DNA of 64,000 nucleotides from Candidatus Kerfeldbacteria bacterium RIFCSPLOWO2_02_FULL_42_19 (GTDB lineage: Bacteria; Patescibacteriota; Patescibacteriia; HO2-48-17). The notes under the pieces were generated by a model. The model searched no databases. It was not told the origin of the DNA and saw only the letters and a program-made list of their open reading frames with translations. Of this stretch, positions 12,338 through 34,431 are shown in pieces (positions within the stretch are counted from its first letter, which is position 1; every line of letters starts with the position of its first letter). The stretch is taken from positions 128,080 to 192,079 of the forward strand of contig MHKF01000012.1 of the NCBI GenBank assembly GCA_001818315.1. Reading direction: 5' to 3'. The position numbers and the translations under genes are program-made.

Positions 12338-12396
12338 GTCTCAATGAAAGTTTTTCTCGAAAAACTTGCTCTTTTATTTTTTGTTTAATTTTTTGT

Positions 12397-13761
12397 ATGC
12401 CAAGAACGCGCACACGTTTACGTGTCCATCGTAATAAAATTGTAAAAAAAAGTACTCGGGGCAAGCGCAAGCCAGAACCGAAGCGTTCTCGGAAAAAATC
12501 CGCATTGTCTTCGGTGCGTAAAAAATCTCATAACATTCGTCGATCAAAACATAATGCCTCAGCTCATGGCGCTCCAGGTCGCAAACCTCAGAAGCGAATC
12601 GGTTTGTCAACTGGAAAATCTCCTTTAAAAGCTCTCGGATTTTTACATCCGCCAGTGCCGCCGCGGGGATATACACCAACTTCGTGGCCGGAATCTGAAG
12701 CTCAGAAATTGTTTGCTAAGGGACAGATGCGCAGCTTTTTGACTGAAGATGAAATTTTACATACATTTCCTTTTATTGAAGATTATTTGCATGAATACGA
12801 ACATTTTTTGGGGCAACTCGAATACGGCGGAGTCGCCATTCGTGAGACAACGGGAAGTATTCTTGGACAACAACTCGCACCGCAAAACGAAACCCGGAAG
12901 CAGGTTTCTGATCGTAAGCCGTTCGATTTGGGTGACATTTCGAATGATTCTATTCAAATGTATTTGCGCGAGATTGGGAAAGTACCTCTTTTAAACAGTG
13001 AGGAAGAAATTCGACTTGCGAAACTCAAAGAAAGAGGGGAGCCGGACGCTAAACGGAAAATGATTGAAGCGAATTTGCGTCTCGTCGTAAGTATTGCAAA
13101 GAAGTTTACTGGCAGATCGCTTTCGCTTTTAGATCTCATTCAAGAGGGGAATGTTGGTTTGTTTCGCGCCGTGGAAAAGTTTGACTATCGGAAGGGGTAT
13201 AAATTTTCGACGTATGCGACCTGGTGGATTCGGCAGGCGATTACGCGTTCACTTGCAGATCAATCGCGCACGATTCGTATTCCGGTCCACATGGTCGAGA
13301 CGATTAATAAGTTTCAGCAGATAGAAAGGCAATTGATTCAAAGTCTTGGACGCGAGCCGCTGCCCGAAGAAATTGCCACTGAGATGGGCTTGCCGATCGA
13401 AAAAGTATTTCAGATTATAAAAATTTCGCAGGACACAGTTTCACTCGAAACGACTGTTGGAGATGATGATGAAGATTCAACGCTTGGGGATTTTATTGAA
13501 GATGCGAAGAGCGTGACACCGGATCGTGCAGCGGCTTTGGAGCTTTTGCGAGATCATGTGCGTGATGTGATTCGTGATTTAGTGCCCCGTGAACAAAAAA
13601 TTCTTGAGATGCGTTTTGGATTGCTCGACGGTGTTGCTCATACGCTCGAGGAAGTTGGTCAAGAGTTTGGTGTTACTCGAGAGCGTATCCGTCAGATTGA
13701 AGCAAAGTCACTGGAGCGCATCAAGCAACATGTCTCTATGAAAAAGCTTCAGGATTATTAG
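12397..13761 (+). CDS. rpoD: RNA polymerase primary sigma factor RpoD (sigma-70) with a basic N-terminal extension
   Basis: [12 protein letters not shown] region 2.x, IRIPVHMVE, region 4 [15 protein letters not shown]; the position after dnaG fits the operon. Confidence 0.85.
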
Positions 13762-18040: not shown

Positions 18041-18116
18041 TCCGCGGTAGCTCAGTTGGTAGAGCAGTTGGCTGTTAACCAATTGGTCGTGGGTTCGAGT
18101 CCCACCCGCGGAGCCA
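18041..18116 (+). tRNA. tRNA-Asn (anticodon GUU)
   Basis: 7-bp acceptor stem tccgcgg/ccgcgga, D-arm TAGCTCAGTTGGTAGAGC, anticodon loop cuGUUaa, T-arm GGTTCGAGTCC, encoded CCA; 76 nt. Confidence 0.85.
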
Positions 18117-19649: not shown

Positions 19650-20926
19650 AAAAAAATGTAACACAATTTTCTGGAGTCAGGCGTGAATCGCGCTCTATTC
19701 CTTGGGCAGCCCTTTTTCATATCTATCAACCAGATCACTGGGATCCGCGAGTGATTCGAAAGGTTGCAAAAGAAGCGTATTATCCCTTTCTACGCATGTT
19801 GCAAAAAAATCCGAATCATAAAATCACTTTGAATATTTGTGCTTCCCTTACCGAACAGTTGAGTCGTCACGGTATGTCGGACCTTTTGCGTGGCTTTGCT
19901 CTCTGCGCACAGCGCGGTCAAATTGAGTTTACTCAAACAGCAAAGTATCATCCTATTTTACCGAAATTACCGCGTAAGGAAATTATCCGGCAGTTTGAAT
20001 TGAACTATGCAACGAATCGAGCGTTTTTTGGAGAGGCTTTCGCGCCTCGAGGTGTGTTTTTACCGGAGATGTGCATGAATCACAATGTCGCTTCGATTAT
20101 TGCTGAGCTTGGATATGAGTGGATTGTGTTGGATGAAATTGCGTATGCCGGACGCATCGGCGATGTTTCGTTTCGTTATAAATATTACGATCCGAAGAGC
20201 ACATTATTGCTTTTATTCCGTAATAGAATCTTAAGCGATGTATTTTTCCGGTTGGATTTGAATACTGTCAGCGAATTTCGTAATTTTATACTCGAAAAAT
20301 TAGCGCCGCAGTCACCGCTCGTTACTGCGCTTGATGGAGAAAATCTTGGGCATCATCGCAAAGGTATGGACGGGATATATCATAAGCTTGTGCAAAGTCG
20401 ACCGTTTGTAACTATGACCTATTCTGAACTTCTCGCAACACTGCCACTCAGGAAACTCTCACATCCTTTACATCCTTCAAGTTGGGCTTCGCGTTCCGAA
20501 GAACTCGCCCGCGGAGTGCCTTATATTCGTTGGGATGATCCTACCAATCCGATTCACACGTTACTCTGGGAGATTACCCGAGGGGTCTTGAAGATTTTTT
20601 ATAAACACCAGGCGAAAACCGTTTTATGCGGTGAAGCACGGATTCGACTCGATCAGGCACTGAACAGCGATCAGTATTGGTGGGCATCCACACAACCTTG
20701 GTGGAGTGTGGAAATTCTTTTTGCAGCCCTCGATGAGTGGAAACAGGTACTTTCGCAACTCGCTGGCGTGCCTCAACAAGAGATTCAAAAGATTATGCGA
20801 CTTATCACTCGCACGAAACGTCTCGTACGTACATGGCAAGACAAGGGCGTTGCGGAGCGTCGCCGACTCGCCTATCTACGCACCGTGCAGGAGGCAAGTT
20901 TTCTTGGAGGTAAAACAGTTTTATGA
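19646..20926 (+). CDS. glycoside hydrolase family 57 protein (alpha-glucan-active), copy 1
   Basis: GH57 blocks HIYQP…, IEFTQTAKYHPILP, GVFLPEMC (nucleophile Glu region), WIVLDE; overlaps the next gene by 4 nt. Confidence 0.6.
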   Translation: MKKNVTQFSGVRRESRSIPWAALFHIYQPDHWDPRVIRKVAKEAYYPFLRMLQKNPNHKITLNICASLTEQLSRHGMSDLLRGFALCAQRGQIEFTQTAKYHPILPKLPRKEIIRQFELNYATNRAFFGEAFAPRGVFLPEMCMNHNVASIIAELGYEWIVLDEIAYAGRIGDVSFRYKYYDPKSTLLLLFRNRILSDVFFRLDLNTVSEFRNFILEKLAPQSPLVTALDGENLGHHRKGMDGIYHKLVQSRPFVTMTYSELLATLPLRKLSHPLHPSSWASRSEELARGVPYIRWDDPTNPIHTLLWEITRGVLKIFYKHQAKTVLCGEARIRLDQALNSDQYWWASTQPWWSVEILFAALDEWKQVLSQLAGVPQQEIQKIMRLITRTKRLVRTWQDKGVAERRRLAYLRTVQEASFLGGKTVL

Positions 20927-22317
20927 TTTGGACTAATTTTTTACATATTTATCAGCCGCCGACGCAGAAGCAACGATGGGTGCGTAAAATCGCTAACGAA
21001 AGTTACCGCAAACTCATTCGTGGATTTTTGGATAATCCCAAAGCCAAAGTTACGATGAATGTGAATGCTGTACTTCTGGAACTTTTCGATCGATATGGAT
21101 GTCAGGATGTGATTGCCGGATTGCGTGAACTTGGCGAGCGCGGACAGATTGAATTTACGGCATCAGCAAAATATCATCCTTTTTTGCCGCTTATGCCTGA
21201 GACTGAAATTGTTCGTCAGATCGGACTGAATACGGAAACAAATCGCAAGTATTTAGGTCCGGCGTATCAACCCAAAGGTTTTTTCCCGCCTGAAATGGCA
21301 TATAATCGGCGTGTCGGTGAGATTGTGAGTAAGCTCGGTTTTCGTTGGATTATTCTTGATGAACTCGCTTCTGCGCCTGCAACAGGGACACTGTCTGCGA
21401 GCGCACTGTATGAAATTAAAGGCATCCCCGATTTTTATGTTTTTTTTCGTGATCGCGCCATGAGCTTTCGAATTCTTTCTGCACAGGTTGGCGTGAGTGT
21501 GTTTTCAAGTAACATGTTGTTGGATTTTTTAGGTGATCGTTTGAATCGTAACGAATATTTACTTACGGCAATGGACGGCGAAACATTTGGACATCATCGA
21601 CCGGGTCTTGAGATGTTATTGTTTGAGATTTACAAAGCAGAGGGCATTACTTCTCTCACGATTTCTCAGCTTTTTGAACATTTTCACGAAAAACGTGTTA
21701 TTGATCCGCGTGATTCCACGTGGGCATTGATGCGTCGGGATTTGGAACGTAATACACCTTTTTCGCGTTGGAAGAATGAACAGAACGAAATTCAAATGTG
21801 GCAATGGGAGCTTACCGATTTGGCGATTCGGAATGTGGAGCACTTTGAACGCGCTAAGCAGGTTACTGCGGCACAGCGTGCAGCGCTCGATCGCGCGCTG
21901 CACAGCGATCAATATTGGTGGGCTTCCGCTGAGCCGTGGTGGAGTATTGAAATGATCGAGGCAGGTGCAAAAGAGTTACGGGATGTTGTTTTGAGTCTGA
22001 GTGTTTCAGCTGCTACAAAGCGTAAAGCAGAAGAACTCTACAAAAATATTTTGTATCGAGCTTTTGATTGGCAGCGGTCAGGCAAAGTCGAAACGATGGC
22101 GAAAATGGCGGATGAAGATGTGACGCAGCGCATTACGACCGAGATTCCTTATATTCCGGAAGAAGAATTTAATACGATCGTTGCGAATTTGACGAAGCAA
22201 ATGAAGCAGGCTGCAGATGCTTTAGAATACGAACGCGCAGCGCAGATTCGCGAGCGCATTAGCGAGTTGAATGCAAAGAAAGACGAAATTACACAACCGA
22301 AAGAGTATCGACCGTGA
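20923..22317 (+). CDS. GH57-family protein with a C-terminal UVR (UvrB/UvrC-type) domain
   Basis: GH57 blocks as in the upstream paralog, plus a C-terminal ANLTKQMKQAADALEYERAAQIRERISEL UVR motif. Confidence 0.6.
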   Translation: MIWTNFLHIYQPPTQKQRWVRKIANESYRKLIRGFLDNPKAKVTMNVNAVLLELFDRYGCQDVIAGLRELGERGQIEFTASAKYHPFLPLMPETEIVRQIGLNTETNRKYLGPAYQPKGFFPPEMAYNRRVGEIVSKLGFRWIILDELASAPATGTLSASALYEIKGIPDFYVFFRDRAMSFRILSAQVGVSVFSSNMLLDFLGDRLNRNEYLLTAMDGETFGHHRPGLEMLLFEIYKAEGITSLTISQLFEHFHEKRVIDPRDSTWALMRRDLERNTPFSRWKNEQNEIQMWQWELTDLAIRNVEHFERAKQVTAAQRAALDRALHSDQYWWASAEPWWSIEMIEAGAKELRDVVLSLSVSAATKRKAEELYKNILYRAFDWQRSGKVETMAKMADEDVTQRITTEIPYIPEEEFNTIVANLTKQMKQAADALEYERAAQIRERISELNAKKDEITQPKEYRP

Positions 22318-22318
22318 A

Positions 22319-22411
22319 GCGAGGAGTTGAGTGTAGGGATAGTATAGCTTTCGAAGCACTAACATTGTACTGTGTGCTGAGAAAGTATATTATCCCTACA
22401 CTCAACTCCTC
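22319..22411. repeat. Family-B hairpin repeat, copy 2 (after the GH57-UVR stop)
   Basis: gaggagttgagtgtagggatagtatagctttcgaagcactaacattgtactgtgtgctgagaaagtat…atccctacactcaactcctc. Confidence 0.6.
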
Positions 22412-22488
22412 GTGCAATCGATTTGGATTATTGCAACGATGCGCCTTCTCGGTCATAATAATATCAAGATGTTCATTTGTGATTTTTA

Positions 22489-23955
22489 ATGTACATGAAA
22501 GCATTGCGTGTTTTATTTATTGCTTCTGAATTGAATCCACTCGCAAAAGTTGGAGGTCTTGCGGATGTTATTGGAGCTTTGCCGAAAGCTCTCAAAAAGC
22601 AAGGTGTGGATGTGCGAATCATGATCCCAAAGTATAGCATGATTGATCCCAAGCAATATCCGATGCAGCGTATTGCGCGACGCATTCCGGTGCGCCTCTA
22701 TAATCGCACTTACTTGGTTAATGTTTTTACAACGAAACTTCCGGGCACTTCCATCACGGTATATCTCATCGATCAAAAGGATTTCTTTGCAGACGGCGGA
22801 GTGTATTATTCAAAGACAGCTCTTGTAGGTACTTTTAAAGAAATCGAGAGATTTTTGTTTTTCGGTCGTGCGGCCCTTGAAAGCCTTCCGCATCTCGGCT
22901 GGAAGCCAGATATTTTGCATTGTAATGATTGGCACACCGCGTTTATTCCTGTATGGCTTAAGACCATCTATTGTTGTCATCATCCATTTTACGCTTCACT
23001 TCGCACGTTATATACCATTCATAATCTTGCGAATCAAGGCATTGGTGATCTGAAGCTTTTAAAAGTTGCGAATGTTTCTACGCGAGCTCTCCCGAGTCTT
23101 GAACGTGATGCTCGGAATAATGATATTGATCTCATGGTACAAGGTATTCTCACAAGCGACGCGATCAATACGGTGAGTCCAACGTATGTGAAGGAGATTC
23201 TGACACCGGAATACGGTGAGCGTTTAGACCCAGTCCTCAAACTCCGCCAGCGTGATCTTTATGGGATTTTGAACGGTATTGATACGGATGTTTTTAATCC
23301 TTCCACTGATGTGCATATTCGACAGCGTTATTCGGTGAAGAGTTTTGAACAGAAGCAGATCAATAAGGCGGCCTTGCAACAAATGTGTGGTTTTCATGTC
23401 GATCCGCGTGTACCCGTTTTTGGTATGGTATCGCGTTTGACTCATCAAAAAGGATTCGATCTTTTAATCAAACTGCGTAAGGAACTTATAAAACTTCCTA
23501 TGCAACTTGTCATTTTGGGCACTGGCGATGCAACGATTGAAAAAGCCCTTGTGGCGCTCAGCAAACGATCGTCGCGCACGATGTGTATTTTTTTGAAATT
23601 TGATGCCAAGCTCGCGCAGATGATTTATGCTGGCAGTGATTTTTTTCTTATGCCTTCTCGGTTTGAACCGTGTGGCCTTGGACAAATGATTGCTATGCGC
23701 TATGGTACTCCGCCTGTTGTACGATCGACTGGAGGACTTGCTGATACCGTGCGGCACCTCAAAACAGGTGTCGTCTTCCATGATTATGCCGCCAAAGCAC
23801 TTCTTGCTGCTTTACACACGGCGATCCGTATCTATCACAATCCTCACGTGTATACTGCGTTAGCGAAAGCCGGCATGAGACAAGATCTTTCGTGGGGCAG
23901 TTCTGCTCAAGTGTATATGCGATTATATCGTAAACTCCTTGCATCCCATTCATAA
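22489..23955 (+). CDS. glgA: glycogen/starch synthase (GlgA-like), copy 2
   Basis: IASELNPLAKVGGLADVIGALP; GT-B C-terminal SRFEPCGL. Confidence 0.8.
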   Translation: MYMKALRVLFIASELNPLAKVGGLADVIGALPKALKKQGVDVRIMIPKYSMIDPKQYPMQRIARRIPVRLYNRTYLVNVFTTKLPGTSITVYLIDQKDFFADGGVYYSKTALVGTFKEIERFLFFGRAALESLPHLGWKPDILHCNDWHTAFIPVWLKTIYCCHHPFYASLRTLYTIHNLANQGIGDLKLLKVANVSTRALPSLERDARNNDIDLMVQGILTSDAINTVSPTYVKEILTPEYGERLDPVLKLRQRDLYGILNGIDTDVFNPSTDVHIRQRYSVKSFEQKQINKAALQQMCGFHVDPRVPVFGMVSRLTHQKGFDLLIKLRKELIKLPMQLVILGTGDATIEKALVALSKRSSRTMCIFLKFDAKLAQMIYAGSDFFLMPSRFEPCGLGQMIAMRYGTPPVVRSTGGLADTVRHLKTGVVFHDYAAKALLAALHTAIRIYHNPHVYTALAKAGMRQDLSWGSSAQVYMRLYRKLLASHS

Positions 23956-24894: not shown

Positions 24895-24924
24895 ATATTC
24901 GGGAATTTTCGTCCTGTAATTGAA

Positions 24925-25090
24925 AGAGTGAAGAACGGCGAGCATATGTTTTTTCAAATGCGTTGTGATTACCAACTTTATGAGATAGAGAGGAAAGTGT
25001 GTACGAGAGCAACTTTTTCAAACGAATATCATTCATGTTTGGATATCACAGCATTTGAAAAAACATATGCTCGCCGTTCTTCACTATTCA
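24925..25090. repeat. Family-A element, copy 2 (conserved core in a different, locus-specific perfect ~28-bp stem)
   Basis: Arms agtgaagaacggcgagcatatgtttttt / aaaaaacatatgctcgccgttcttcact; the core aligns with 4567-4746. Confidence 0.6.
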
Positions 25091-25110: not shown

Positions 25111-25308
25111 ATGGAATTTGCAAATCTGCGCTGTCCCTATTGCGGACATGTACAACAGGTGACGGTGCCACAAAAAAGTTGTCTTTTTTCGCATCGCTGC
25201 GCGCGATGTCATGATCTTATTACCGTACCATCGACGAGTTCGGAATGCTGTGTAATTTGCGCTTATTCCGATACGAAGTGTCCAGTGAGTCGCTCACAGA
25301 GTAAGTAA
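25111..25308 (+). CDS. small Cys-rich zinc-ribbon protein (hypothetical)
   Basis: 65 aa with CPYCG…C…C..C and a second CC..C cluster; weak support. Confidence 0.3.
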   Translation: MEFANLRCPYCGHVQQVTVPQKSCLFSHRCARCHDLITVPSTSSECCVICAYSDTKCPVSRSQSK

Positions 25309-25360
25309 GTTGGAGCCTAAACACAGCACAACCTCTTTACTTTGGTAGCTAAAGAGGTTG

Positions 25361-27184
25361 TTATGGCGAAAGATCAAGCCCCCATTGTTCGAGTATACTT
25401 TGGAGGTATTCGAGTGTCTTTGTGTCCATCTTTGGACTCATGAGTATTTTTGTTTTCCCGAGGCGCGCTAGTTGCTCAATTGTTTGTACACCCCAACGGT
25501 CTTTGAATCCTCGAATGATTTCTTTCGTGACGCCGTACTTGTTCAGACATTCGATATTTTTTTGTTTCGCCAATTCGGAAGGCCATAGTGGAATGTGCCG
25601 TGTTTCGTTTTTCCGTCTCCCTTGTTTCTTTTTTGATTCCTCCTTTGGTTTCTTGTGCTCTATCTCTTGGCTATCAGATGTTTGGTATGTCCGAACAAAC
25701 TGGGTGTTCAGGTTGAGCATCTCCGCGATCGTACTTATGGGCCATTCGAGATCATTAATAAGTCTTGCAATAATGATTTCGCGAATCATTTGCAGCTCTG
25801 GCGTGTTGCATGCGTATCGTATCGCGCGAAGACTCTGACCGAAACTCTCGCACATCTTTCGAACCAAATTTTCCCGAGCGACTTTTGCTCGGCGTGTCCA
25901 CGATATGCAACGTTGCACAGAACATTTTGGTTTCTTTTTAAAACATGCATCTTCTGGAAAAAGGTATTTTATTTTTTCCAAGATCTGTTTATTTTGACAC
26001 AGCCCAAGTACCCTTTTTTCTATTTGTCGTACTCGTTCCCGCGTGACACCGAGATATGCACCTACTTCTTCCAATGTCTCGCCGTCGCCGCCATTGAGAC
26101 AGAATCGTCTTTCAATACAAACCCGTTCTTGCTCAAAGAGATAACATGCGTCGAAAATTTCCTCGACGAGTTTTGTAAGTTTTTTATGCGTTTCTGCATC
26201 ACACAAACTTTCTTCTATCGAGCTGCCACTAGATACAAGATCACCTCTTGTCGCGCCGTGGTTTGCATCGTTTTGAAGAGATGCGTCCAGCGAGAGAGGA
26301 TGATCATAATTGCGTAATCGGTTGAATAGATCCAAAATTTTTTTCGAACTCGTATTCATGCGTGCTGCAAGTGATTCAATTGTTGGCCGTTCACCAGAAA
26401 GCATCTCTATCTGATAGGTTATTCTATTCAACCTTTGAAGCTCGACGATCAGATGGACTGGAAATATATGAGCCTCTGCAATAGCTCTCCACATCGCTTG
26501 TTTTATCCACCAGTGTGCATAGGTTGAGAAGCGGACTCCTCGCGTATAATCATAACGTTCTACGGCATGCATAAGACCGAGCGCGCCTTCCTGCAAGAGA
26601 CTGTCTTGCGCAAGCATTGGATCCCGGATTCTACCAATGATATTCATTAGATGCCCAAGCGTAGCGCCAACGAGGTTCAGATTTTGTTCCATAATTTGAT
26701 TGCGAGCGGCAAGTCTTTCCGCGGGTGTCCCTTCTCGGAATTGTTGGAAGAGTTTAAATTGGTTGCCGAGGATTTTTTGTGCTATCGCTTCTTCCTCTGG
26801 CGTTGTGGCCTTAAAGTGTGATGTCTCGTATGTGGCGGACAGATTTTTTGGACCAGTGAAATGACGACCGTCTCCTGCTGAAGTACGCAAATGCTCACAA
26901 CCGTACTCTTCGAGTGCTTGTTGGATTTCTGCGATAATATTATCCGCAGTGCCATGTGGCAGAGACCTTTGAACCCCTGCCCTTCTGATCTCTAGAAATG
27001 TTCGGCGTAGTTCCGCCTCACTTTTGAGTTTGAGTTTCGCGATTGTTGTAATGCCTGCACTGATCAGATAGAGTTTTGTGAATGGAGATATATTCAGCGC
27101 GTCTATCGATTCTCCGGTTTCTTGTTTGTTAAGGTGCTGCATGTGTCCCTCCTGTCTTTTCGTTGTGATGTATTCTGATTTCAC
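25361..27184 (-). CDS. sigma-70-family sigma factor with N- and C-terminal extensions that resemble RpoA alpha-CTD / HhH domains
   Basis: Region 2 YAHWWIKQAMWRAI; region 4 LEEVGAYLGVTRERVRQIE; N-terminal LNISPFTKLYLISAGITTIAKL and C-terminal IECLNKYGVTKE…TIEQLARLGKTKILMSPKMDTKTLEYLQSILEQWGLDL resemble the alpha-CTD pattern. Confidence 0.65.
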   Translation of the reverse strand: MKSEYITTKRQEGHMQHLNKQETGESIDALNISPFTKLYLISAGITTIAKLKLKSEAELRRTFLEIRRAGVQRSLPHGTADNIIAEIQQALEEYGCEHLRTSAGDGRHFTGPKNLSATYETSHFKATTPEEEAIAQKILGNQFKLFQQFREGTPAERLAARNQIMEQNLNLVGATLGHLMNIIGRIRDPMLAQDSLLQEGALGLMHAVERYDYTRGVRFSTYAHWWIKQAMWRAIAEAHIFPVHLIVELQRLNRITYQIEMLSGERPTIESLAARMNTSSKKILDLFNRLRNYDHPLSLDASLQNDANHGATRGDLVSSGSSIEESLCDAETHKKLTKLVEEIFDACYLFEQERVCIERRFCLNGGDGETLEEVGAYLGVTRERVRQIEKRVLGLCQNKQILEKIKYLFPEDACFKKKPKCSVQRCISWTRRAKVARENLVRKMCESFGQSLRAIRYACNTPELQMIREIIIARLINDLEWPISTIAEMLNLNTQFVRTYQTSDSQEIEHKKPKEESKKKQGRRKNETRHIPLWPSELAKQKNIECLNKYGVTKEIIRGFKDRWGVQTIEQLARLGKTKILMSPKMDTKTLEYLQSILEQWGLDLSP

Positions 27185-27257
27185 TCAAGTCTTCTGTGAC
27201 TTGAGATGAGGGTATAACGTTAGTTTTGTGTCGTCAAGCATGTCTTAAAAACGCAAT

Positions 27258-27298
27258 CAGACTGTGAAAACTTTTTGAGAGATGTTTCGCACAGTCTG
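27258..27298. terminator. hairpin cagactgtgaaaac…gtttcgcacagtctg, 12 nt after the stop of paralog A
   Basis: Inverted repeat seen directly; a homologous hairpin sits at 29984-30029. Confidence 0.4.
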
Positions 27299-27310
27299 TT
27301 TGAGAATGTT

Positions 27311-28060
27311 TCAAAAGAATTTTTCCTCAATCATTCGGAGCCACCGAAGCCATTTTTCTGGATCGGCGTCGAACTCCGGGCGTTTGAGGGTCAGGACGTT
27401 TCGTGCGAGCACAGCGTCGAAAGTAGTCCCGTCGAAGCTTCCCAGAATGACGCCGATGAACAGGCCGGAGTTGATGTGCACGTCTTGTTGCATGCACGAT
27501 GACACCTGCGTGCTGTGATCTGGTTCTTCGTGAAAGAGATGTTCGAGCTTTGGTGCAGCGTTGATGAGTTTTTGTTTGTATTGTTGTGTGAACGTTTCTT
27601 TCGCTGCATACTTCGCGTTTGTGTGTACAAAGAGCCGGAGGAACCTTCCGAGCATTCGCCACAGAAAGATCAATGTCGTGAGGCTTTCGTGTCCCAAGAT
27701 CTGTATGATTGCGTTGAGTGCGCAGGGGTCAATCACGAGGGAATTTTCGTATCCCTGGTGGAGGAGATGAGGCTGCATGAAGACGAGGGGCTTTATGAAG
27801 TCTGGTTCGCGGTGCTGTGGGATTGTCGACATCAGGACTCGCGGTTTGAGCTGTAGATCATGGGGGAGTTGCTCGGCGAAGCCTAGGAAGTTAAGCTTGA
27901 GGAATTCAGCGGGGTTATACTCTTCTGCTTTGGCGAATCCTGGCTCGTCATCCATGTATCCGAAGATACCAAGTCTCTCTTTTTGTGTATCCAGTTTTTG
28001 CATCTTTTTTCCTTTCTTTGATTTTTTGTTCCTCGGGTTTTCCGAAAATATTTGCGGCAT
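27311..28060 (-). CDS. uncharacterised protein, paralog A of 30039-30737 (no recognised family)
   Basis: 249 aa; shares LWRMLGRFLRLFV and the C-terminal DVHINSGLF.GV.LGSF.G.TF…LAR.VLT.KRPEF…WLRMIE.KFF with paralog B (~45-70% identity by block). Confidence 0.55.
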   Translation of the reverse strand: MPQIFSENPRNKKSKKGKKMQKLDTQKERLGIFGYMDDEPGFAKAEEYNPAEFLKLNFLGFAEQLPHDLQLKPRVLMSTIPQHREPDFIKPLVFMQPHLLHQGYENSLVIDPCALNAIIQILGHESLTTLIFLWRMLGRFLRLFVHTNAKYAAKETFTQQYKQKLINAAPKLEHLFHEEPDHSTQVSSCMQQDVHINSGLFIGVILGSFDGTTFDAVLARNVLTLKRPEFDADPEKWLRWLRMIEEKFF

Positions 28061-28109: not shown

Positions 28110-28946
28110 TTGTCAAGAGGTTTCTATTCGAGGAGATTGATGATAATGGAAAAAAACACTGTTTATTGTCAGATTCGTAAGCAATGGATTACCGCAGCCA
28201 TCTGCAGTATGTTGCAAGGTGTTCCGGATTGCGCTGGTTGTGCAGCTCCGACGCGACAATGCGAGCATTGTAAAAAACGGATTGTTGAATTTCCGGATAC
28301 CGGTTTGTGCAGGGAGTGTTCACAGAAGGATCCGGAGCAACATAATGCATCTCTGGCTCATTCTATTCCTTCGCGTTCTATGCGTTGGACGCTTTGGCAC
28401 GTTCAAGAAGATCAACCCAACTTTCAGGAGCTTTTGGCACAGGCAGAAACGCTTGTGAGGAAAGAAGGAAAAGCATCGGCGCGTCTCCTCTGTCAGAAAT
28501 TCAATGTAACGCATAGCATTGCAAAGCGGCTGATTCAGGCTTTGGAGACGAGTAGTATTATAGGTCCACCTTATGCTCGTAGACCGCGACGCGTTTTGTC
28601 AGTTCGATCTTCTGTAGATGTTCCCAGTCAAAATCAACCTGAGAACGAGTCTACTGATAAGCCAGTTCTTCCGGTCGGTGAGACTGTTTCTTCAGTCTCT
28701 TCTGATACAGTGCTTGAGACACAGGTTTTCTCTCTTACTCTACCATCGTACTTATGTCACGATGTTTCGGGTGAGTCTACCCATGATTCGGCTGCCGTGG
28801 GTTGGTCTCTCAAGATGGAGTTACTTGTGCGTATTCTGCAGGTGTTGCCTTCACAATCTCAAGCGTCAAAAATTATTCGGACAATCATGGACGACGTCCG
28901 TATCATTCACGCGATCCAACATCTGTTCATCCCCGCTGATCATTAA
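28110..28946 (+). CDS. Cys-rich zinc-binding protein with an FtsK-gamma-like winged-helix domain
   Basis: N-terminal 8-Cys cluster (CQ…C…CAGC…C..C…C..C); middle EGKASARLLCQKFNVTHSIAKRLIQALETSSIIGPP matches the FtsK gamma (GKAS-S-LLQRRL…RLID…GIV) pattern. Confidence 0.5.
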   Translation: MSRGFYSRRLMIMEKNTVYCQIRKQWITAAICSMLQGVPDCAGCAAPTRQCEHCKKRIVEFPDTGLCRECSQKDPEQHNASLAHSIPSRSMRWTLWHVQEDQPNFQELLAQAETLVRKEGKASARLLCQKFNVTHSIAKRLIQALETSSIIGPPYARRPRRVLSVRSSVDVPSQNQPENESTDKPVLPVGETVSSVSSDTVLETQVFSLTLPSYLCHDVSGESTHDSAAVGWSLKMELLVRILQVLPSQSQASKIIRTIMDDVRIIHAIQHLFIPADH

Positions 28947-29046: not shown

Positions 29047-29898
29047 TTACGATTTTTTGTGTGTCTTCAATTCAGTTTCTACTGTTTCTATTTTTTGTTT
29101 GAGAAGTTGCAGGATCGCTACAAGCGTTTCCCGTTGCATCGCGTTGCTACTGGGGATATCGAAATGTTCGAGTCCTTCGAATGTAGCGGCGATAAATCCG
29201 CGTAGTTTTTCAAAAGTGATCACGAGTTGCCTCTTTTCTGTTTGTCTTCTCACATGACGTTGCATTCGAGCCAGCAGTCTATGGGCTGGCAATCTTTCTT
29301 TGACAGCGATGGTCGCTGCATTGAGTTGCTGCTCCGGATTAATTTCCATGATGATCTTCGCGCAAGCAATGTTGATTTCGCCAGCGGCAATCATTTTTTG
29401 TATCGCTTCAGACAGTTTCAAGAGCTGGAGTCGTTCTTCTACGAAGACGGAACTTTTTCCGATGATTCTTCCTACTGCGCTGCGGTTGCCCTGATAATGT
29501 TCGACGAGTTTTGCGATGGCTTTTGCTGTTTCAATGGGGCCAAAGTTTTTGCGTTGCACGTTACGTACTACAGCAATCTCCAGCGCTTCACCTTGCGAGA
29601 CGTATTTTATGATCGCGGGAACCGTACTCCAGTTGGCAGAAATCGCAGAACGCAGACGTCGTTCCCCGTCAATCAACTCGAAATATCCTTCTTGATCATC
29701 TGCTGTGCGTACTTCAATGGGATCCAGCATCCCTTTTTGTCGGAGCGATTCAGCAAAGTATTCAATATCCTCCTGATCAAACGCCTCGCGGAACTGATAA
29801 CGTCCAGTAATGATTCGATTCACCGGAATGTCGCGACGCTCTTCTGTGTTTGTTTCGTGAATATTCTGTGTCATGTCATCCTCCTTTGTTGGTGGCAT
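29047..29898 (-). CDS. ParB/Spo0J-like nuclease-domain protein
   Basis: ParB N-terminal box LIDGERRLRSA, preceded by LDPIEV; HTH-like middle; no parA adjacent. Confidence 0.6.
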   Translation of the reverse strand: MPPTKEDDMTQNIHETNTEERRDIPVNRIITGRYQFREAFDQEDIEYFAESLRQKGMLDPIEVRTADDQEGYFELIDGERRLRSAISANWSTVPAIIKYVSQGEALEIAVVRNVQRKNFGPIETAKAIAKLVEHYQGNRSAVGRIIGKSSVFVEERLQLLKLSEAIQKMIAAGEINIACAKIIMEINPEQQLNAATIAVKERLPAHRLLARMQRHVRRQTEKRQLVITFEKLRGFIAATFEGLEHFDIPSSNAMQRETLVAILQLLKQKIETVETELKTHKKS

Positions 29899-29983
29899 GC
29901 CCTTACTTCACTGCGCTTACTACCTTATCAATGAGAAGTTTTCTTTGTCAATTGAAATTTATTCTGTTTTGTCGTGAAGACAT

Positions 29984-30029
29984 AATCAGACTGCTTGAAA
30001 CGATTTTTCGCGTTTCTCACAGTCTGATT
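29984..30029. terminator. hairpin aatcagactgcttgaaacg…cgtttctcacagtctgatt, 10 nt after the stop of paralog B
   Basis: Homologous to the 27258-27298 hairpin. Confidence 0.4.
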
Positions 30030-30038
30030 AGAAAAGTT

Positions 30039-30737
30039 TCAAAAAAATTTACCTTCGATCATTCGTAGCCACTGAAGCCACTGCTCAGGATTTTTTTCGA
30101 ATTCAGGACGTTTGTGGGTGAGTACTTTTCGCGCGAGCGTGGCGCTGAAAGTATCACCGTTGAAACTGCCAAGTAGAACCCCTACGAAAAGGCTCGAGTT
30201 GATGTGCACATCGTCTTGCGCACCCGGTTTGAGATTAATGCTATGCTCAGGCTCTTCGCGAAAGAAGTTTTCGAGACTCGGCGCAGCCTCGATAATGCTT
30301 CGCTCTTGTTCTAGTGTGAACATTTCCGTCGTCTGAAATTTTCCATTAGCGAGTACGAAGAGCCTCAGAAAACGTCCCAACATACGCCACAACATGATTA
30401 ACGTCCAGAAATCATCCAAATTCCAGATATCCTGCACTAGTATACGCATTGTGTCCGGGTAGATGATGAGACAATTTTTCGCAACAGGGGCTTGCGGGCC
30501 GAAAAAGGTAAGTCCTCGCACAGCGTTCTCTGCAGTTGGTGGTTCTTTCATGAACAAAATTTGCGGTGGATTTTGATGTGTATGAGGTAGTTTTTCTGCA
30601 AAGCTGATAAAATTGACTCTTAGGAATTCCTCGGGACGATATCTGTCGGACAACTGAAATTCTGGATCATCGTTCAAGTATCCATACAGATTCAATCTCT
30701 CATCTTGTTTGCCCTGTTTTTGCATCTCTACATTCAC
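30039..30737 (-). CDS. uncharacterised protein, paralog B of 27311-28060
   Basis: 232 aa; same conserved blocks as paralog A. Confidence 0.55.
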   Translation of the reverse strand: MNVEMQKQGKQDERLNLYGYLNDDPEFQLSDRYRPEEFLRVNFISFAEKLPHTHQNPPQILFMKEPPTAENAVRGLTFFGPQAPVAKNCLIIYPDTMRILVQDIWNLDDFWTLIMLWRMLGRFLRLFVLANGKFQTTEMFTLEQERSIIEAAPSLENFFREEPEHSINLKPGAQDDVHINSSLFVGVLLGSFNGDTFSATLARKVLTHKRPEFEKNPEQWLQWLRMIEGKFF

Positions 30738-30928: not shown

Positions 30929-32062
30929 ATGCAAAACAAATATATTTTTTTTCCAATATTAGCACTTTTACTTGTGTTCCCTTTTCGCTTTGCGGAGGCA
31001 AAAACATATGTCTCCATTAACGGCATCAGTAACGGTGTCGCGTTGTATGCGTATAAGGGTCCGGAACTTCTCAATAAACTTGCTAAAGTTGTGAAAAGCG
31101 GTGGTTCGATCGCGCAAGCGAAGGCACGAGCGCTTTTTAAAAAACACACGATTACGATTGGTAATGTCGTAAAGAGTAAGGGCACGCAAGGCGATGCGGA
31201 GAGTACGCATGTTCGCGCGGGGTCTTTGTTTTTTGGAAAAGCAAAGTTTAAGGCGGCAAAAAAAGGTCAGACCGTGAAGAATTTTCCTATTGTTTATCAC
31301 GTTGATGGGGATCTGAAGTGTTATATTCCAGATGAGGATGTTCCTGAGGATTATGCGATTGCTTATGTAGAAACACAAGTGCGATTTAATAACGATGATA
31401 AATTTATCGGTAGCGCTCTTGTTGATGGCCGCACCGGATTTGACGGTGGCGACGGGGATCTCGCGGGAAAATTTACAGAAAAAGACGAATACAATGTTTC
31501 GATAAAGAAAGATTTTTCGGTGAATCTCGGTAATCTCAAAGATGGCAAAACGTACCCGCTCTTGTTTTTTGGAGCGACGTTGGTTTCCTATGCCGCTGAT
31601 ATACCAGTTGATTATTGTACCGCTGATTTTTATAGCACCGGCGAATTTGGTGTAAGTGAAAAGAACAAAAAATCAAAAGGTAATTTTACGTTTGAACCTG
31701 CCGTGACGGTAACCGCGACGCCTGATTCACAACCCTGGGATCGAAGTGATATCCCAGATATCACCGTCTATGTTGAAAGTAGTAATACAACGCTTATTAA
31801 TACGATTGATGTGAATCAAGTGCAATTATTCGAACGACTCGGAGATGTTGGCCAAATGCAACCGAAGTCTATTTTGGACACCGGAGATTTTGATGGTGAT
31901 GGAGTGAGCGATCGAGGCATCGTGTTTGATGGTTTGCAGCTTTATACGATTCTGCAACTTACAACACTTGGGCATAAGGATAATCCGTTGCTTTATCTCA
32001 TCGGAGAAACAACGAGCGGCACTCCTTTTGCAGGAAAATTCCGTTTTGAGACGCAGGAATAA
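30929..32062 (+). CDS. secreted hypothetical protein
   Basis: N-terminal signal peptide MQNKYIFFPILALLLVFPFRFAEA; 377 aa, Gly/Asp-rich; no family recognised. Confidence 0.45.
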   Translation: MQNKYIFFPILALLLVFPFRFAEAKTYVSINGISNGVALYAYKGPELLNKLAKVVKSGGSIAQAKARALFKKHTITIGNVVKSKGTQGDAESTHVRAGSLFFGKAKFKAAKKGQTVKNFPIVYHVDGDLKCYIPDEDVPEDYAIAYVETQVRFNNDDKFIGSALVDGRTGFDGGDGDLAGKFTEKDEYNVSIKKDFSVNLGNLKDGKTYPLLFFGATLVSYAADIPVDYCTADFYSTGEFGVSEKNKKSKGNFTFEPAVTVTATPDSQPWDRSDIPDITVYVESSNTTLINTIDVNQVQLFERLGDVGQMQPKSILDTGDFDGDGVSDRGIVFDGLQLYTILQLTTLGHKDNPLLYLIGETTSGTPFAGKFRFETQE

Positions 32063-32486: not shown

Positions 32487-32640
32487 GATCGATCGTTTGA
32501 CTCGTTTTTTTTCTCTTTCTGTGAGCAGGTTTTGCCTGCTCCGCTTCTTGAGATTGTGATGTTCGCTCTCGTAGTTTCAAGAAGCTGAGTACTTGTATCG
32601 GGACTGTCGCCGAATGTTATTTTTTGTTCAATACACGAAA

Positions 32641-32721
32641 CAAAAGAGGAGGATGACTCTCCTTTCTCAGCACACTGTGCAGTGTCAGTGCTTCGAAAGC
32701 AAGAGTCATCCTCTTCTTTTG
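32641..32721. repeat. Family-B hairpin repeat, copy 3 (inverted orientation)
   Basis: aaaagaggaggatgactctcctttctcagcacactgtgcagtgtcagtgcttcgaaagcaagagtcatcctcttctttt. Confidence 0.6.
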
Positions 32722-32895
32722 TTTTGCACATTGCATAAGAAAACGGTATTCGTGGACAGTCCCATATCGCGTCGTTATTTTCTTTTTGAGTAGAATGTTT
32801 TATATTTTAAGCAGTTGACTATTTTTATCTGTTGTTTTTTTATTCTCGGTGTGAAGAACAAAATATCCATACATCGTAGGTTTTGTTTCGCGAGC

Positions 32896-34380: not shown

Positions 34381-34431
34381 TGTTTTTTGATTGTATTGCC
34401 AGACTGCGAAATTCGCGATAAAGTCAGTACG

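What the first reader, a model, noticed from the sequence alone, without database searches (positions are those of the whole stretch)
25361..27184. 607-aa sigma-70-family protein flanked by two alpha-CTD-like helix-hairpin-helix domains
Regions 2 to 4 are clear (YAHWWIKQAMWRAI; GVTRERVRQIE). About 140 aa before region 2 and ~250 aa after region 4 are extra. The N-terminal segment LNISPFTKLYLISAGITTIAKLKLKSEAEL and the C-terminal segment IECLNKYGVTKE…TIEQLARLGKTKILMSPKMDTKTLEYLQSILEQWGLDL both follow the RpoA alpha-CTD pattern L.LS.R..N.L..AGI.TI..L…L…GKKSL.EI…L…GL.L. A sigma factor that carries its own UP-element-binding or alpha-CTD-like modules would be an unusual architecture. It may supply alpha-CTD functions or tether the sigma factor to specific promoters. 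The gene lies in an island with a ParB-like protein and unknown paralogs.
Basis: partly seen in the sequence, partly recalled or inferred. Interest (0 to 1): 0.65.

Follow-up and report, generated by a model that had tools for sequence, protein, structure and literature searches.

The report
Orphan alternative sigma factor with extra ends
This is a real but one-of-a-kind second sigma factor in an uncultivated Kerfeldbacteria genome; its extra N- and C-terminal ends weakly resemble the DNA-binding tail of the RNA polymerase alpha subunit, but I could not prove that resemblance.

Summary
The ORF is real (25361..27184, minus strand). Its likely start is the ATG at 27142, behind an AGGAGG, which gives 593 aa as in NCBI's 'hypothetical protein' of Candidatus Kerfeldbacteria. 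Sigma-70 regions 2, 3 and 4 pass Pfam thresholds.

It is not the housekeeping sigma. A canonical dnaG-rpoD pair sits at 10538-13761, and the two sigmas share only 33% identity.

The extensions are about 112 aa at the N terminus and about 196 aa at the C terminus, not 140 and 250. No other protein shares the C-extension in an exhaustive search of 1.84 billion representatives.

The alpha-CTD idea is partly supported:
- **N-terminal segment.** Its only non-sigma, non-HTH Pfam hits are three helix-hairpin-helix families (HHH_5, TfoX_C, RNA_pol_A_CTD; E 0.013-0.19). That points to generic HhH, not specifically alpha-CTD.
- **C-terminal 45 residues.** They match a purpose-built alpha-CTD profile (12.8 bits, P about 5e-6, 0 of 5000 shuffles). 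They also match B. subtilis alpha-CTD in an unbiased PDB search, but only at E=0.4. Pfam finds nothing.
- **DNA contacts.** Most alpha-CTD DNA-contact residues, including R265, are not conserved.
- **Structure.** AlphaFold models of the extensions were too poor to test the fold.

Verdict: a new variant of a known kind, of moderate interest.

The parts
25361..27142 (-). Alternative sigma-70-family gene, most likely form: 593 aa with an ATG start, stop codon included. The longest ORF extends to a GTG at 27184 (607 aa). Residue numbers below use the 607-aa numbering.
   Evidence: ORF list. AGGAGG 5 nt upstream of the ATG. Identical to NCBI protein P0001, 593 aa. In-frame codon-usage log-odds are positive and beat both other frames.
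27148..27153 (-). Shine-Dalgarno AGGAGG for the ATG at 27142
   Evidence: Read directly from the sequence.
27209..27237 (-). Weak promoter-like element: TTGACG (27237-27232), then either TATACC after 15 nt or TACCCT after 17 nt
   Evidence: Read directly from the sequence. The consensus scan did not list it. This is inference only.
26894..27115 (-). N-terminal helix-hairpin-helix-like domain (residues 24-97). The profile-supported part is residues 26-60; the second half (61-97) is unassigned.
   Evidence: Pfam RNA_pol_A_CTD 17-61 at E=0.013 and HHH_5 at 0.026. On the isolated segment: HHH_5 0.047, TfoX_C 0.12, RNA_pol_A_CTD 0.19. Custom alpha-CTD HMM 9.5 bits, P about 5e-5, 0 of 5000 shuffles. 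hhalign probability 54%. Sigma region 1.1 profile only 1.7 bits.
26807..26884 (-). Linker (residues 101-126), predicted disordered
   Evidence: AlphaFold pLDDT 37-50. No family hit.
25952..26806 (-). Sigma-70 core (residues 127-411): a degenerate region 1.2, then region 2 (26477-26668), region 3 (26267-26440) and region 4 (26006-26134)
   Evidence: Pfam. NCBIfam RpoD_Cterm 152.7 bits. PDB SigA/HrdB E=2e-34. AlphaFold pLDDT 72-98. BLAST ranges against 119 sigma factors.
25676..25951 (-). Basic helical middle domain of the C-extension (residues 412-503; net charge +8, pI 9.7, five Cys). It looks HTH-like by eye (WPISTIAEMLNLNTQFVRTY), but no family is assigned.
   Evidence: Charge. No Pfam hit. 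No PDB hit. Sigma-profile control -0.4 bits. pLDDT 57-77 in the full-length model.
25580..25675 (-). Lys/Arg-rich linker (residues 504-535, EHKKPKEESKKKQGRRKNETRH)
   Evidence: Composition. pLDDT about 30.
25364..25579 (-). C-terminal alpha-CTD-like domain (residues 536-607). The profile-supported part is residues 563-606 (25367-25498).
   Evidence: Custom alpha-CTD HMM 12.8 bits, P about 5e-6, 0 of 5000 shuffles. hhalign probability 71%, P=3.7e-5. PDB phmmer finds B. subtilis alpha-CTD 3ihq_B/1z3e_B/3gfk_B at E=0.4. No Pfam hit.
25331..25360 (.). Hairpin AACCTCTTTA-N10-TAAAGAGGTT between the sigma stop codon and the convergent small ORF; a likely bidirectional terminator
   Evidence: Read directly from the sequence.
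27258..27298 (-). Inverted repeat CAGACTGTG-N23-CACAGTCTG followed by a T-run, between paralogue A and the sigma gene. A homologous copy lies between paralogue B and parB (29983-30030).
   Evidence: Repeat search (D1, D4, I4, I8). Alignment of the two intergenic regions.
27311..28060 (-). Paralogue A (249 aa, unknown function), directly upstream of the sigma gene
   Evidence: 50% identical to paralogue B. No Pfam, PHROG or PADLOC hit. No relatives found in metagenome or viral contigs.
28110..28946 (+). FtsK-gamma-domain protein (278 aa)
   Evidence: Pfam FtsK_gamma at E=1.3e-9.
29047..29898 (-). ParB-like protein (283 aa)
   Evidence: Pfam ParB_N at 7.5e-23 and HTH_ParB at 2.6e-15. PHROG ParB-like families.
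30039..30737 (-). Paralogue B (232 aa), directly upstream of parB
12397..13761 (+). Resident housekeeping sigma factor RpoD (454 aa), just downstream of dnaG (10538-12337). It is context that shows the finding is a second sigma factor.
   Evidence: Pfam r1.2, r2, r3 and r4. TIGR02393 scores 355.7 bits against a cutoff of 354. 33% identity to the 593-aa sigma.

Best explanation
This is a lineage-restricted alternative sigma-70-family factor of a Candidatus Kerfeldbacteria (CPR) genome. It has its own ribosome-binding site and terminator hairpin. It lies in a small cluster of orphan DNA-binding genes (ParB-like, FtsK-gamma, two unknown paralogues).

**Shown.**
- It has a complete sigma core (regions 2, 3, 4) that models confidently.
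- The -35-reading residues of region 4.2 (R-E-R-x-R-Q) are kept.
- The region 2.4 position equivalent to E. coli T440 is Trp. Three residues are deleted between regions 2.4 and 3.0.
- The basic tail of region 4, which in E. coli touches activators and alpha-CTD, is replaced.
- A separate canonical RpoD exists next to dnaG.

**Inferred.**
- In place of the acidic region 1.1 it carries a neutral helix-hairpin-helix-type domain.
- After region 4 it carries a basic 196-aa tail: a helical, possibly HTH, domain, then a Lys/Arg-rich flexible linker, then a terminal domain shaped like the last two-thirds of the alpha-CTD.
- Region 4 sits on the -35 element, so the tethered basic tail would reach the DNA upstream of it. 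The positions quoted for that DNA (about -40 to -70, where alpha-CTDs normally bind) come from my knowledge of E. coli promoter complexes and were not computed here. There the tail would add promoter affinity or selectivity in cis, mainly through electrostatic and backbone contacts rather than the canonical R265 minor-groove contact.
- The N-terminal domain may gate DNA binding of free sigma, as region 1.1 does, or may bind a partner.
For: **Core.** Pfam r2, r3 and r4. RpoD-type profiles at 120-170 bits. PDB SigA/HrdB at E=2e-34. AlphaFold pLDDT 72-98 over 131-410.

**Second sigma.** dnaG-rpoD at 10538-13761 passes the RpoD_Cterm cutoff. The two are 33% identical.

**Real gene.** RBS, terminator hairpin and in-frame codon bias in N-ext, core and C-domain. 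The identical protein occurs on 23 contigs from several assemblies.

**Extensions lie outside the sigma fold.** All 119 other sigmas end at residues 393-412. The sigma profile scores -0.4 bits or less on the extensions.

**HhH/alpha-CTD likeness.**
- Pfam RNA_pol_A_CTD at E=0.013 and HHH_5 at 0.026 in the whole-protein scan. HHH_5, TfoX_C and RNA_pol_A_CTD are the only hits on the isolated N-domain.
- The custom alpha-CTD HMM gives 12.8 bits (C) and 9.5 bits (N). No shuffle out of 5000 each reaches these, and none of 177 control proteins exceeds 5.6 bits.
- hhalign gives 71% and 54% probability.
- B. subtilis alpha-CTD chains rank among the top hits of the PDB search with the C-domain.
- Helix boundaries in the low-confidence models coincide with alpha-CTD helices 1 to 4.

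**Basic tail.** Net charge +15 over residues 412-607, while the N-domain is neutral.
Against: - No database-wide test reaches significance for either extension. Pfam scores are below the gathering thresholds and the PDB E-value is 0.4.
- Pfam finds nothing in the C-extension.
- For the N-domain, alpha-CTD is no better than generic HhH families.
- By alignment, the alpha-CTD DNA-contact residues R265, N268, C269 and G296 are replaced in both domains (F36/L39 in N; I557/G560/F561/D587 in C).
- AlphaFold could not fold the extensions: pLDDT 30-75 in the full-length model and 41.6 for the C-extension alone. Foldseek then gave no match.
- The C-extension has no homologue anywhere, so there is no conservation or covariation evidence that it is functional. 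Codon bias in residues 412-535 is near zero.
- The upstream-DNA-contact mechanism is entirely inferred.
Confidence: 0.5

Rival explanations
1. The extensions are fast-evolving, lineage-specific helical decorations with no evolutionary or structural relation to alpha-CTD or HhH domains, and the resemblance is convergent helix-capping patterns or chance. They could still act as a fused regulatory or partner-binding module, as in ECF sigma factors with C-terminal extensions.
For: - All database-wide scores are sub-threshold.
- Syntaxin-1A outranks alpha-CTD in the PDB search with the C-domain.
- The N-domain query finds no alpha-CTD in the PDB.
- Pfam is silent on the C-extension.
- The C-extension is a complete sequence orphan.
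- Key alpha-CTD residues are absent.
Against: - Two separate segments of one transcription protein both score best against the same small family.
- 0 of 5000 shuffles and 0 of 177 real control proteins reach their scores.
- The only Pfam hits to the isolated N-domain are three members of the HhH clan.
- Control profiles (sigma core, region 1.1) score about 0 to 1.7 bits on the same segments.
Confidence: 0.3
2. The N-extension is a degenerate sigma region 1.1 rather than an alpha-CTD-like domain. The protein would then be a diverged copy of a primary-type sigma whose region 1.1 and region 1.2 have decayed.
For: - Residues 75-96 (LPHGTADNIIAEIQQALEEYGC) align with the end of region 1.1 (LP...ID.V..aL.eeGI) in a 62-sequence profile and with HrdB region 1.1 in the PDB search (domain 1).
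- BLAST alignments to three RpoDs start at residues 42-71.
- The best full-length relatives are primary sigmas.
Against: - The region 1.1 profile scores only 1.7 bits (P=0.016), against 9.5 bits for the alpha-CTD profile.
- Pfam Sigma70_r1_1 is not reported for this protein even at E<=10, whereas it is for the resident RpoD.
- The domain is neutral rather than acidic.
- Residues 26-60 match HhH families, which region 1.1 does not.
Confidence: 0.12
3. The gene belongs to an integrated mobile element or remnant (plasmid- or phage-derived: ParB, FtsK-gamma, sigma, duplicated unknown genes). It drives only that element's genes, and its odd ends are element-specific adaptor domains. This reading is compatible with the best explanation for the domains. 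It differs only on biological role.
For: - Neighbours are ParB-like and FtsK-gamma proteins plus orphan paralogues.
- Duplicated gene-plus-intergenic modules carry a shared inverted repeat upstream of both the sigma gene and parB.
- Codon-usage scores of island genes (0.10-0.23) are mostly below the window's annotated genes (mean 0.31, minimum 0.18).
- The protein matches a PHROG phage sigma family (phrog_351, E=7e-47).
- The MzaA profile (below cutoff) is the best NCBIfam hit.
Against: - No integrase, tRNA, flanking direct repeats or phage structural genes were found at the borders. The only tRNA is at 18041.
- There is no PADLOC system.
- No relatives were found in viral contigs or phage genomes beyond generic sigma similarity.
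- No genome lacking the island was available for comparison.
Confidence: 0.3

Closest known systems
Primary-type (group 1/2) sigma-70 factors: RpoD/SigA/HrdB, RpoS (TIGR02393, PDB 8k60_F, 5uh5_F)
   Same: Regions 2, 3 and 4 are present in order, with 32-39% identity over about 250-285 residues. The -35 recognition helix motif TRERVRQIE and the melting aromatics (Y..WW) are present.
   Different: - It scores 152.7 bits against the 354-bit cutoff of RpoD_Cterm, and no Pfam region 1.2 or 1.1 is detected.
- It has T440->W and a 3-residue deletion after region 2.4. The basic C-terminal tail of region 4 is replaced, and 196 extra C-terminal residues follow.
- The genome has its own dnaG-linked RpoD.
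C-terminal domain of the RNA polymerase alpha subunit (alpha-CTD, Pfam PF03118; B. subtilis 1Z3E/3IHQ chain B, E. coli 1COO)
   Same: The layout L.LS...L..AGI.T...L..K[ST]E.EL appears in residues 27-59. The layout G[VI].T[IV].[EQ]LA...9...K[ST]LE....LE..GL.L appears in residues 563-606. Both domains are small, helical and tethered by a flexible linker to a polymerase-bound module.
   Different: - It is attached to sigma, not to the alpha N-terminal domain.
- Scores are below Pfam's gathering score.
- The DNA-contact residues R265, N268, C269 and G296 are not conserved.
- The N-domain has a 12-14-residue insertion before the second hairpin. The first helix of the C-domain is ambiguous.
- The fold is not verified.
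Generic helix-hairpin-helix DNA-binding modules (Pfam HHH_5, TfoX_C)
   Same: The N-domain scores as well against these as against alpha-CTD (E=0.026-0.12).
   Different: Scores are below threshold. These families are not known to me as parts of sigma factors (own knowledge, not tested).
MzaA, the sigma-70-family protein of the MZA anti-phage system (NCBIfam NF041931, PADLOC PDLC02203)
   Same: It is the best-scoring NCBIfam model (170.8 bits) and the only PADLOC hit (96.6 bits). Like this protein, it is a sigma core embedded in a much longer protein.
   Different: The score is far below the 800-bit cutoff and only the sigma core aligns. In MzaA the extra part (about 470 aa) is N-terminal. None of the eight neighbouring proteins scanned matches any PADLOC model. 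The resident RpoD scores even higher on the same model (331.5 bits), so the hit is generic.
ECF sigma factors with fused C-terminal regulatory extensions (e.g. groups ECF41/ECF42; own knowledge)
   Same: They show the same idea of a sigma factor that carries an extra C-terminal domain modulating its own activity.
   Different: This protein has region 3 and a primary-type region 2/4, so it is not an ECF sigma. Its extension is basic and DNA-binding-like rather than SnoaL- or TPR-like.

Membership tests
Sigma-70 family | Region 2 (core binding, -10 recognition) above the Pfam gathering score | tested here: met
   PF04542 scores 46.7 bits against 24, at residues 173-236.
Sigma-70 family | Region 4 (-35 recognition HTH) above the Pfam gathering score | tested here: met
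   PF04545 scores 48.2 bits against 24.1, at residues 351-393. The motif GVTRERVRQIE is present.
Sigma-70 family | Binds core RNA polymerase and directs promoter-specific initiation | not testable with these tools
   This needs biochemistry.
Primary sigma factor RpoD/SigA | Reaches the curated cutoff of an RpoD equivalog model | tested here: not met
   TIGR02393 scores 152.7 bits against 354, and NF004208 scores 149.2 against 555. The resident protein at 12397-13761 reaches 355.7.
Primary sigma factor RpoD/SigA | Regions 1.1 and 1.2 present | tested here: not met
   Neither PF00140 nor PF03979 is reported at E<=10. A region 1.1 profile scores 1.7 bits. BLAST alignments suggest only a remnant of region 1.2 from residue 127.
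Primary sigma factor RpoD/SigA | Conserved dnaG-rpoD gene neighbourhood | tested here: not met
   dnaG (10538-12337) is followed by the other sigma gene. This gene is flanked by orphan genes.
RNA polymerase alpha-CTD (PF03118) | Reaches the Pfam gathering score (23.8 bits) | tested here: not met
   The N-domain scores 11.9-15.7 bits. The C-domain has no hit.
RNA polymerase alpha-CTD (PF03118) | Compact four-helix fold with two helix-hairpin-helix motifs | tested here: inconclusive
   AlphaFold pLDDT is 45-75 for the N-domain and 30-75 for the C-domain in the full model, and 41.6 for the C-extension alone. Foldseek against the PDB found nothing below E=4. Predicted helix breaks do coincide with the alpha-CTD hairpins.
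RNA polymerase alpha-CTD (PF03118) | DNA-binding determinant R265, N268, C269, G296, K298, S299 (E. coli numbering; own knowledge of the family) | tested here: not met
   By HMM and hhalign alignment the equivalents are F36, L39 and Y40 in the N-domain, and I557, G560, F561 and D587 in the C-domain. Only K589/T590 match K298/S299.
RNA polymerase alpha-CTD (PF03118) | Tethered to the alpha N-terminal (assembly) domain | tested here: not met
   Both segments are parts of a sigma-family protein.
Helix-hairpin-helix clan (HHH_5, TfoX_C and relatives) | Significant profile match to at least one HhH family | tested here: inconclusive
   For the N-domain, HHH_5 gives E=0.026-0.079, TfoX_C 0.12 and RNA_pol_A_CTD 0.013-0.19. 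All are below cutoff, but they are the only hits on the isolated segment. The C-domain matches only the custom alpha-CTD profile.
MzaA / MZA anti-phage system | Reaches the MzaA equivalog cutoff and is encoded next to the other Mza genes | tested here: not met
   It scores 170.8 bits against 800. None of the eight neighbouring proteins scanned has a PADLOC hit.
ECF (group 4) sigma factors | Only regions 2 and 4, with no region 3 | tested here: not met
   Region 3 is present (PF04539, 25.6 bits), and RpoD-type models align over 230-270 residues.

The most novel reading that the evidence does not exclude
A sigma factor that carries its own upstream-promoter readers. An alpha-CTD-derived domain on a Lys/Arg-rich tether after region 4, plus a second HhH domain in place of region 1.1, would let this sigma supply in cis the upstream-DNA contacts that normally come from the alpha subunits. 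It might also displace the alpha-CTDs from their docking site next to region 4. That would give a minimal-genome CPR bacterium, or a mobile element in it, a self-sufficient promoter-selectivity module.
Probability: 0.2. Interest if true: 0.7.

Novelty: new variant of a known kind. Interest (0 to 1): 0.4.

Why it matters
Sigma factors are normally thought to read only the core promoter (-35, extended -10, -10, discriminator). Upstream DNA is read by the alpha-subunit C-terminal domains and by activators. A natural sigma with tethered extra DNA-binding modules would show that this division of labour can be collapsed into one polypeptide.

It would also offer a compact part for synthetic promoter control. 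And it would add to the sparse knowledge of transcription in CPR bacteria, which have very few regulators.

As it stands the case rests on twilight-zone similarity in a single uncultivated organism. Its present value is as a specific hypothesis that is cheap to test, not as an established new architecture.

Tried and rejected
1. **Word-index homologue searches with the extensions alone** returned nothing. They also failed to return the protein itself, so I treat them as uninformative. The exhaustive search of the C-extension is the valid negative. It cannot see matches below roughly 45 bits (my estimate for a 1.8-billion-protein library).
2. **AlphaFold, full length, with a 49-sequence alignment**. 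The core is good and the extensions are poor.
3. **AlphaFold of residues 412-607 alone** gave mean pLDDT 41.6. **Foldseek against the PDB** with that model gave no match below E=4. The structural test was therefore not possible.
4. **phmmer of the long extensions against the PDB** gave only spurious hits.
5. **Looking for related islands through the two paralogues** gave nothing in two metagenome scans and one viral scan.
6. **Phage relatives of the sigma or of its extensions** gave only generic core similarity, or nothing.
7. **Defence-system reading (MzaA)** is rejected. The score is far below cutoff, there are no partner genes, and the resident RpoD scores higher on the same model.
8. **A second copy of sigma region 4 or region 3 in the C-extension** is rejected, because the sigma profile scores -0.4 bits or less.
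9. **Region 1.1 identity of the N-extension** has weak support only.
10. **Population variation as a test of selection** failed. There are no differences within the gene across the assemblies compared.
11. **Literature searches for sigma/alpha-CTD fusions or 'alpha-CTD-like' domains** found no precedent. That is not proof of absence.
12. **The genome's rpoA** is not in the window, since no window ORF exceeds 2.5 bits on the alpha-CTD profile, and I could not retrieve it.
Full report
**1. The observation**

An ORF of 607 codons runs on the minus strand from a GTG at 27184 to a stop at 25361-25363.

Fourteen codons downstream of the GTG there is an ATG at 27142, preceded by AGGAGG at 27153-27148 with a 5-nt spacer. 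No such site precedes the GTG. The public annotation starts at that ATG: P0001, 593 aa, 'hypothetical protein A3B74_00770, Candidatus Kerfeldbacteria bacterium RIFCSPHIGHO2_02_FULL'. I keep the 607-residue numbering below for comparison with the finding.

A perfect 10-bp-stem hairpin (25331-25360) separates the stop codon from a convergent 65-codon Cys-rich ORF. Codon-usage log-odds are positive in frame and clearly better than the other two frames for residues 15-126, 127-411 and 536-607. They are near zero for 412-535. The identical protein is encoded on 23 contigs from several assemblies of the same aquifer population, always in the same context.

**2. The sigma core**

- Pfam finds Sigma70_r2 (173-236, 46.7 bits), r3 (249-306, 25.6 bits) and r4 (351-393, 48.2 bits).
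- NCBIfam RpoD, RpoS and SigB models align over about 160-400 at 120-170 bits, all far below their cutoffs.
- PDB SigA/HrdB chains match at E about 2e-34.
- With a 49-sequence alignment, AlphaFold models residues 131-410 at pLDDT 72-98.
- BLAST against 119 other sigma factors shows that all of them end opposite residues 393-412. Most start aligning at about 127 or later.

The non-canonical parts are therefore residues 15-126 (about 112 aa) and 412-607 (196 aa).

Read directly from the sequence, with E. coli numbering from my own knowledge:
- The region 4.2 recognition helix keeps R584, E585, R588 and Q589 (TRERVRQIE).
- Region 2.4 keeps Q437 but has Trp at the T440 position.
- Three residues (R448-I450) are missing before the PVH motif.
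- The basic residues at the end of region 4 that contact activators and alpha-CTD in E. coli (R596, K597, R599, R603) are G, L, Q, I here.

**3. It is a second sigma factor**

The window also holds dnaG (10538-12337) followed by a 454-aa protein (12397-13761). That protein has regions 1.2, 2, 3 and 4, reaches the RpoD_Cterm cutoff (355.7 against 354 bits) and has a weak region 1.1 signal (E=0.0027). It is the housekeeping sigma.

The protein under study is only 33% identical to it. It is about equally distant (32-39%) from every other sigma in 5.8 billion clustered proteins, and none of the listed hits covers more than 60% of its length. It is thus a highly diverged alternative sigma with no known orthologue.

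**4. The extensions: homologues**

An exhaustive phmmer search of residues 396-607 against 1.84 billion representatives returned only the protein itself. In a library of that size I estimate that only matches above roughly 45 bits would be seen, so distant domain-level relatives are not excluded. Close or moderately diverged ones are.

The two word-index searches with the extensions did not even recover the protein itself, so I discount them. tblastn against phage genomes found nothing.

**5. The extensions: alpha-CTD test**

*Database-wide tests.*
- On the whole protein, Pfam gives RNA_pol_A_CTD at E=0.013 (residues 17-61, profile 5-49 of 67; 15.7 against 23.8 bits) and HHH_5 at E=0.026.
- On the isolated N-domain the only hits are HHH_5 (0.047), TfoX_C (0.12) and RNA_pol_A_CTD (0.19), all helix-hairpin-helix families.
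- Pfam reports nothing for the C-extension, the C-terminal domain or the middle domain.
- phmmer of residues 554-607 against all PDB sequences puts the B. subtilis alpha-CTD chains 3ihq_B, 1z3e_B and 3gfk_B at ranks 3-5 (E=0.4) and C. difficile RpoA at rank 15. All sit behind syntaxin-1A (E=0.17).
- The N-domain query finds no alpha-CTD in the PDB.

*Targeted tests.* I collected 80 rpoA loci from Bacillota genomes and built a profile from 72 distinct alpha-CTDs plus E. coli.

| Test | C-terminal domain | N-terminal domain |
|---|---|---|
| hmmsearch, filters off, one-sequence search space | 12.8 bits, P about 5e-6; residues 563-606 on profile 24-67 | 9.5 bits, P about 5e-5; residues 26-60 on profile 8-42 |
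| Shuffles reaching that score | 0 of 5000 | 0 of 5000 |
| hhalign | 71% probability, P=3.7e-5, 45 columns | 54% probability, P=1.3e-4, 58 columns spanning the whole alpha-CTD with an insertion |

The best of 58 other window ORFs scored 2.5 bits and the best of 119 other sigma factors 5.6 bits. Control profiles do not match these segments: the sigma core scores -0.4 bits or less and region 1.1 scores 1.7 bits.

*Caveat.* The segments were picked by eye for this resemblance. The honest significance is therefore the database-wide one, which is marginal (E about 0.01-0.4).

*My reading.* An HhH-type N-terminal module is likely (about 65%). An alpha-CTD-like C-terminal module is about even odds. 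Specific descent from alpha-CTD, rather than from generic HhH modules, is not shown for the N-domain.

**6. The structure test failed**

The extensions had pLDDT 30-75 in the full-length model. The C-extension alone gave a mean pLDDT of 41.6, and Foldseek against the PDB gave nothing below E=4.

The only structural hint is that predicted helix boundaries coincide with alpha-CTD helix 1, hairpin 1, helices 2/3, hairpin 2 and helix 4 under the profile alignments. The boundaries are N: 34-42, 45-71, 80-93; C: 552-564, 569-580, 588-600.

**7. Functional residues and charge**

Under the profile alignments, the alpha-CTD DNA-contact residues are mostly not conserved:

| E. coli residue | N-domain | C-domain |
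|---|---|---|
| R265 | F36 | I557 |
| N268/C269 | L39/Y40 | G560/F561 |
| G296 | not assigned | D587 |
| K298/S299 | not assigned | K589/T590 (retained) |

A canonical UP-element minor-groove contact is therefore unlikely.

The C-extension is nevertheless strongly basic: +8 for 412-503, +4 for the linker 504-535 (EHKKPKEESKKKQGRRKNETRH) and +3 for 536-607. The N-domain is neutral, unlike the acidic region 1.1. The middle domain contains a helix-turn-helix-looking stretch (WPISTIAEMLNLNTQFVRTY), but no profile supports that.

**8. Context**

The gene is the last of a minus-strand cluster:
- paralogue B (30039-30737);
- ParB-like protein (29047-29898; ParB_N 7.5e-23, HTH_ParB 2.6e-15);
- a divergent FtsK-gamma-domain protein (28110-28946, plus strand);
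- paralogue A (27311-28060);
- the sigma gene.

The two paralogues are 50% identical. The DNA downstream of each is also homologous and carries the same inverted repeat (CAGACTGTG...CAGTCTG) ahead of parB and of the sigma gene. The unit 'paralogue + repeat + DNA-binding gene' is thus duplicated.

The paralogues have no Pfam, PHROG or PADLOC hits and no relatives in the metagenome or viral collections scanned. Island genes have mostly lower codon-usage scores (0.10-0.23) than the window's annotated genes (mean 0.31).

There is no integrase, flanking tRNA or direct repeat. The flanks are ordinary metabolism: glycogen genes on one side, and a glycosyl hydrolase, dCTP deaminase and thymidylate synthase on the other. 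A mobile-element origin is plausible but unproven.

**9. Mechanism proposed**

*Shown:* a complete, primary-like sigma core with a canonical -35-reading helix and an altered -10/-12 reading position.

*Inferred:* as an alternative sigma it binds core polymerase. Region 4 sits on a TTGACA-like -35 element. The basic C-terminal tail, tethered by a flexible Lys/Arg-rich linker, lies on the DNA upstream of -35. I take that to be about -40 to -70, the alpha-CTD territory, from my knowledge of E. coli promoter complexes. There it adds affinity or selectivity. The N-terminal HhH domain takes the place of region 1.1. I give this about 0.5 overall, and about 0.2 for the strong version in which the modules truly substitute for or compete with alpha-CTDs.

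**10. Comparison and novelty**

It is a member of the sigma-70 family. It is not an RpoD equivalog, not an ECF sigma and not MzaA. The MzaA hit is generic, because the resident RpoD scores higher on that model. It does not meet the alpha-CTD family's thresholds or its DNA-binding signature.

I found no literature precedent for a sigma fused to alpha-CTD-like modules in five text searches, which is weak evidence.

I rate it a new variant of a known kind. It has an unusual, orphan domain architecture on a standard sigma core, with a specific hypothesis that is cheap to test but only twilight-zone support. Interest is 0.4.

Noticed in passing
window 10538-13761 (+): A canonical dnaG-rpoD pair. 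The 454-aa RpoD has a 180-residue N-terminal region with only a weak region 1.1 signal (E=0.0027 at residues 100-153). It is the housekeeping sigma of this genome.
   Followed up: yes
window 27258-27298 and 29983-30030; 27284-27491 vs 30012-30219: The 3' ends of the two unknown paralogues and the intergenic DNA after them are homologous (74-79%). Both carry the inverted repeat CAGACTG(TG)...CAGTCTG just upstream of the sigma gene and of parB. This is either a shared operator or a terminator-like hairpin, in a duplicated 'paralogue + repeat + DNA-binding gene' module.
   Followed up: partly
window 24924-24961 / 25051-25088: A 38-nt inverted repeat, 97% complementary, with an 89-nt spacer. It lies between the galT-like gene and a 65-codon Cys-rich ORF (25111-25308, weak Zn-ribbon hit at E=0.003) that has its own AAGGAGA ribosome-binding site. 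No Rfam family matches.
   Followed up: no
window 32620-32660 / 32702-32742: A 41-nt inverted repeat (80% complementary) in the gap before the glycosyl-hydrolase gene, at the far side of the orphan gene cluster. Its function is unknown.
   Followed up: no
window 36988-38517 (+): A 509-aa protein combines an MtrA-like domain, a thymidylate-synthase domain and a PterinBD-DUF4346 domain. This is an unusual fusion, and it sits next to a dCTP deaminase.
   Followed up: no
window 7102-9945 (-), 42067-43692 (-), 43701-45077 (-), 30929-32062 (+), 34387-35670 (+): Large ORFs (947, 541, 458, 377 and 427 aa) with no Pfam hit at the thresholds used. These are orphan proteins typical of CPR genomes.
   Followed up: no
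window 18123-23955 (+): A glycogen-type cluster with two starch/glycogen-synthase paralogues and two GH57 paralogues, one carrying a C-terminal UVR motif. A tRNA-Asn lies at 18041-18116.
   Followed up: no
window 46361-47062 (-): A 233-aa ORF matches only the C-terminal third of ATP-dependent PEP carboxykinase (profile positions 298-456 of 465). It is possibly a truncated gene or a fragment.
   Followed up: no
tool behaviour: The word-index protein search did not return the query's own parent protein (P0001) when given only its N- or C-terminal part. 'No hit' from that tool with short sub-sequences should not be read as absence.
   Followed up: yes
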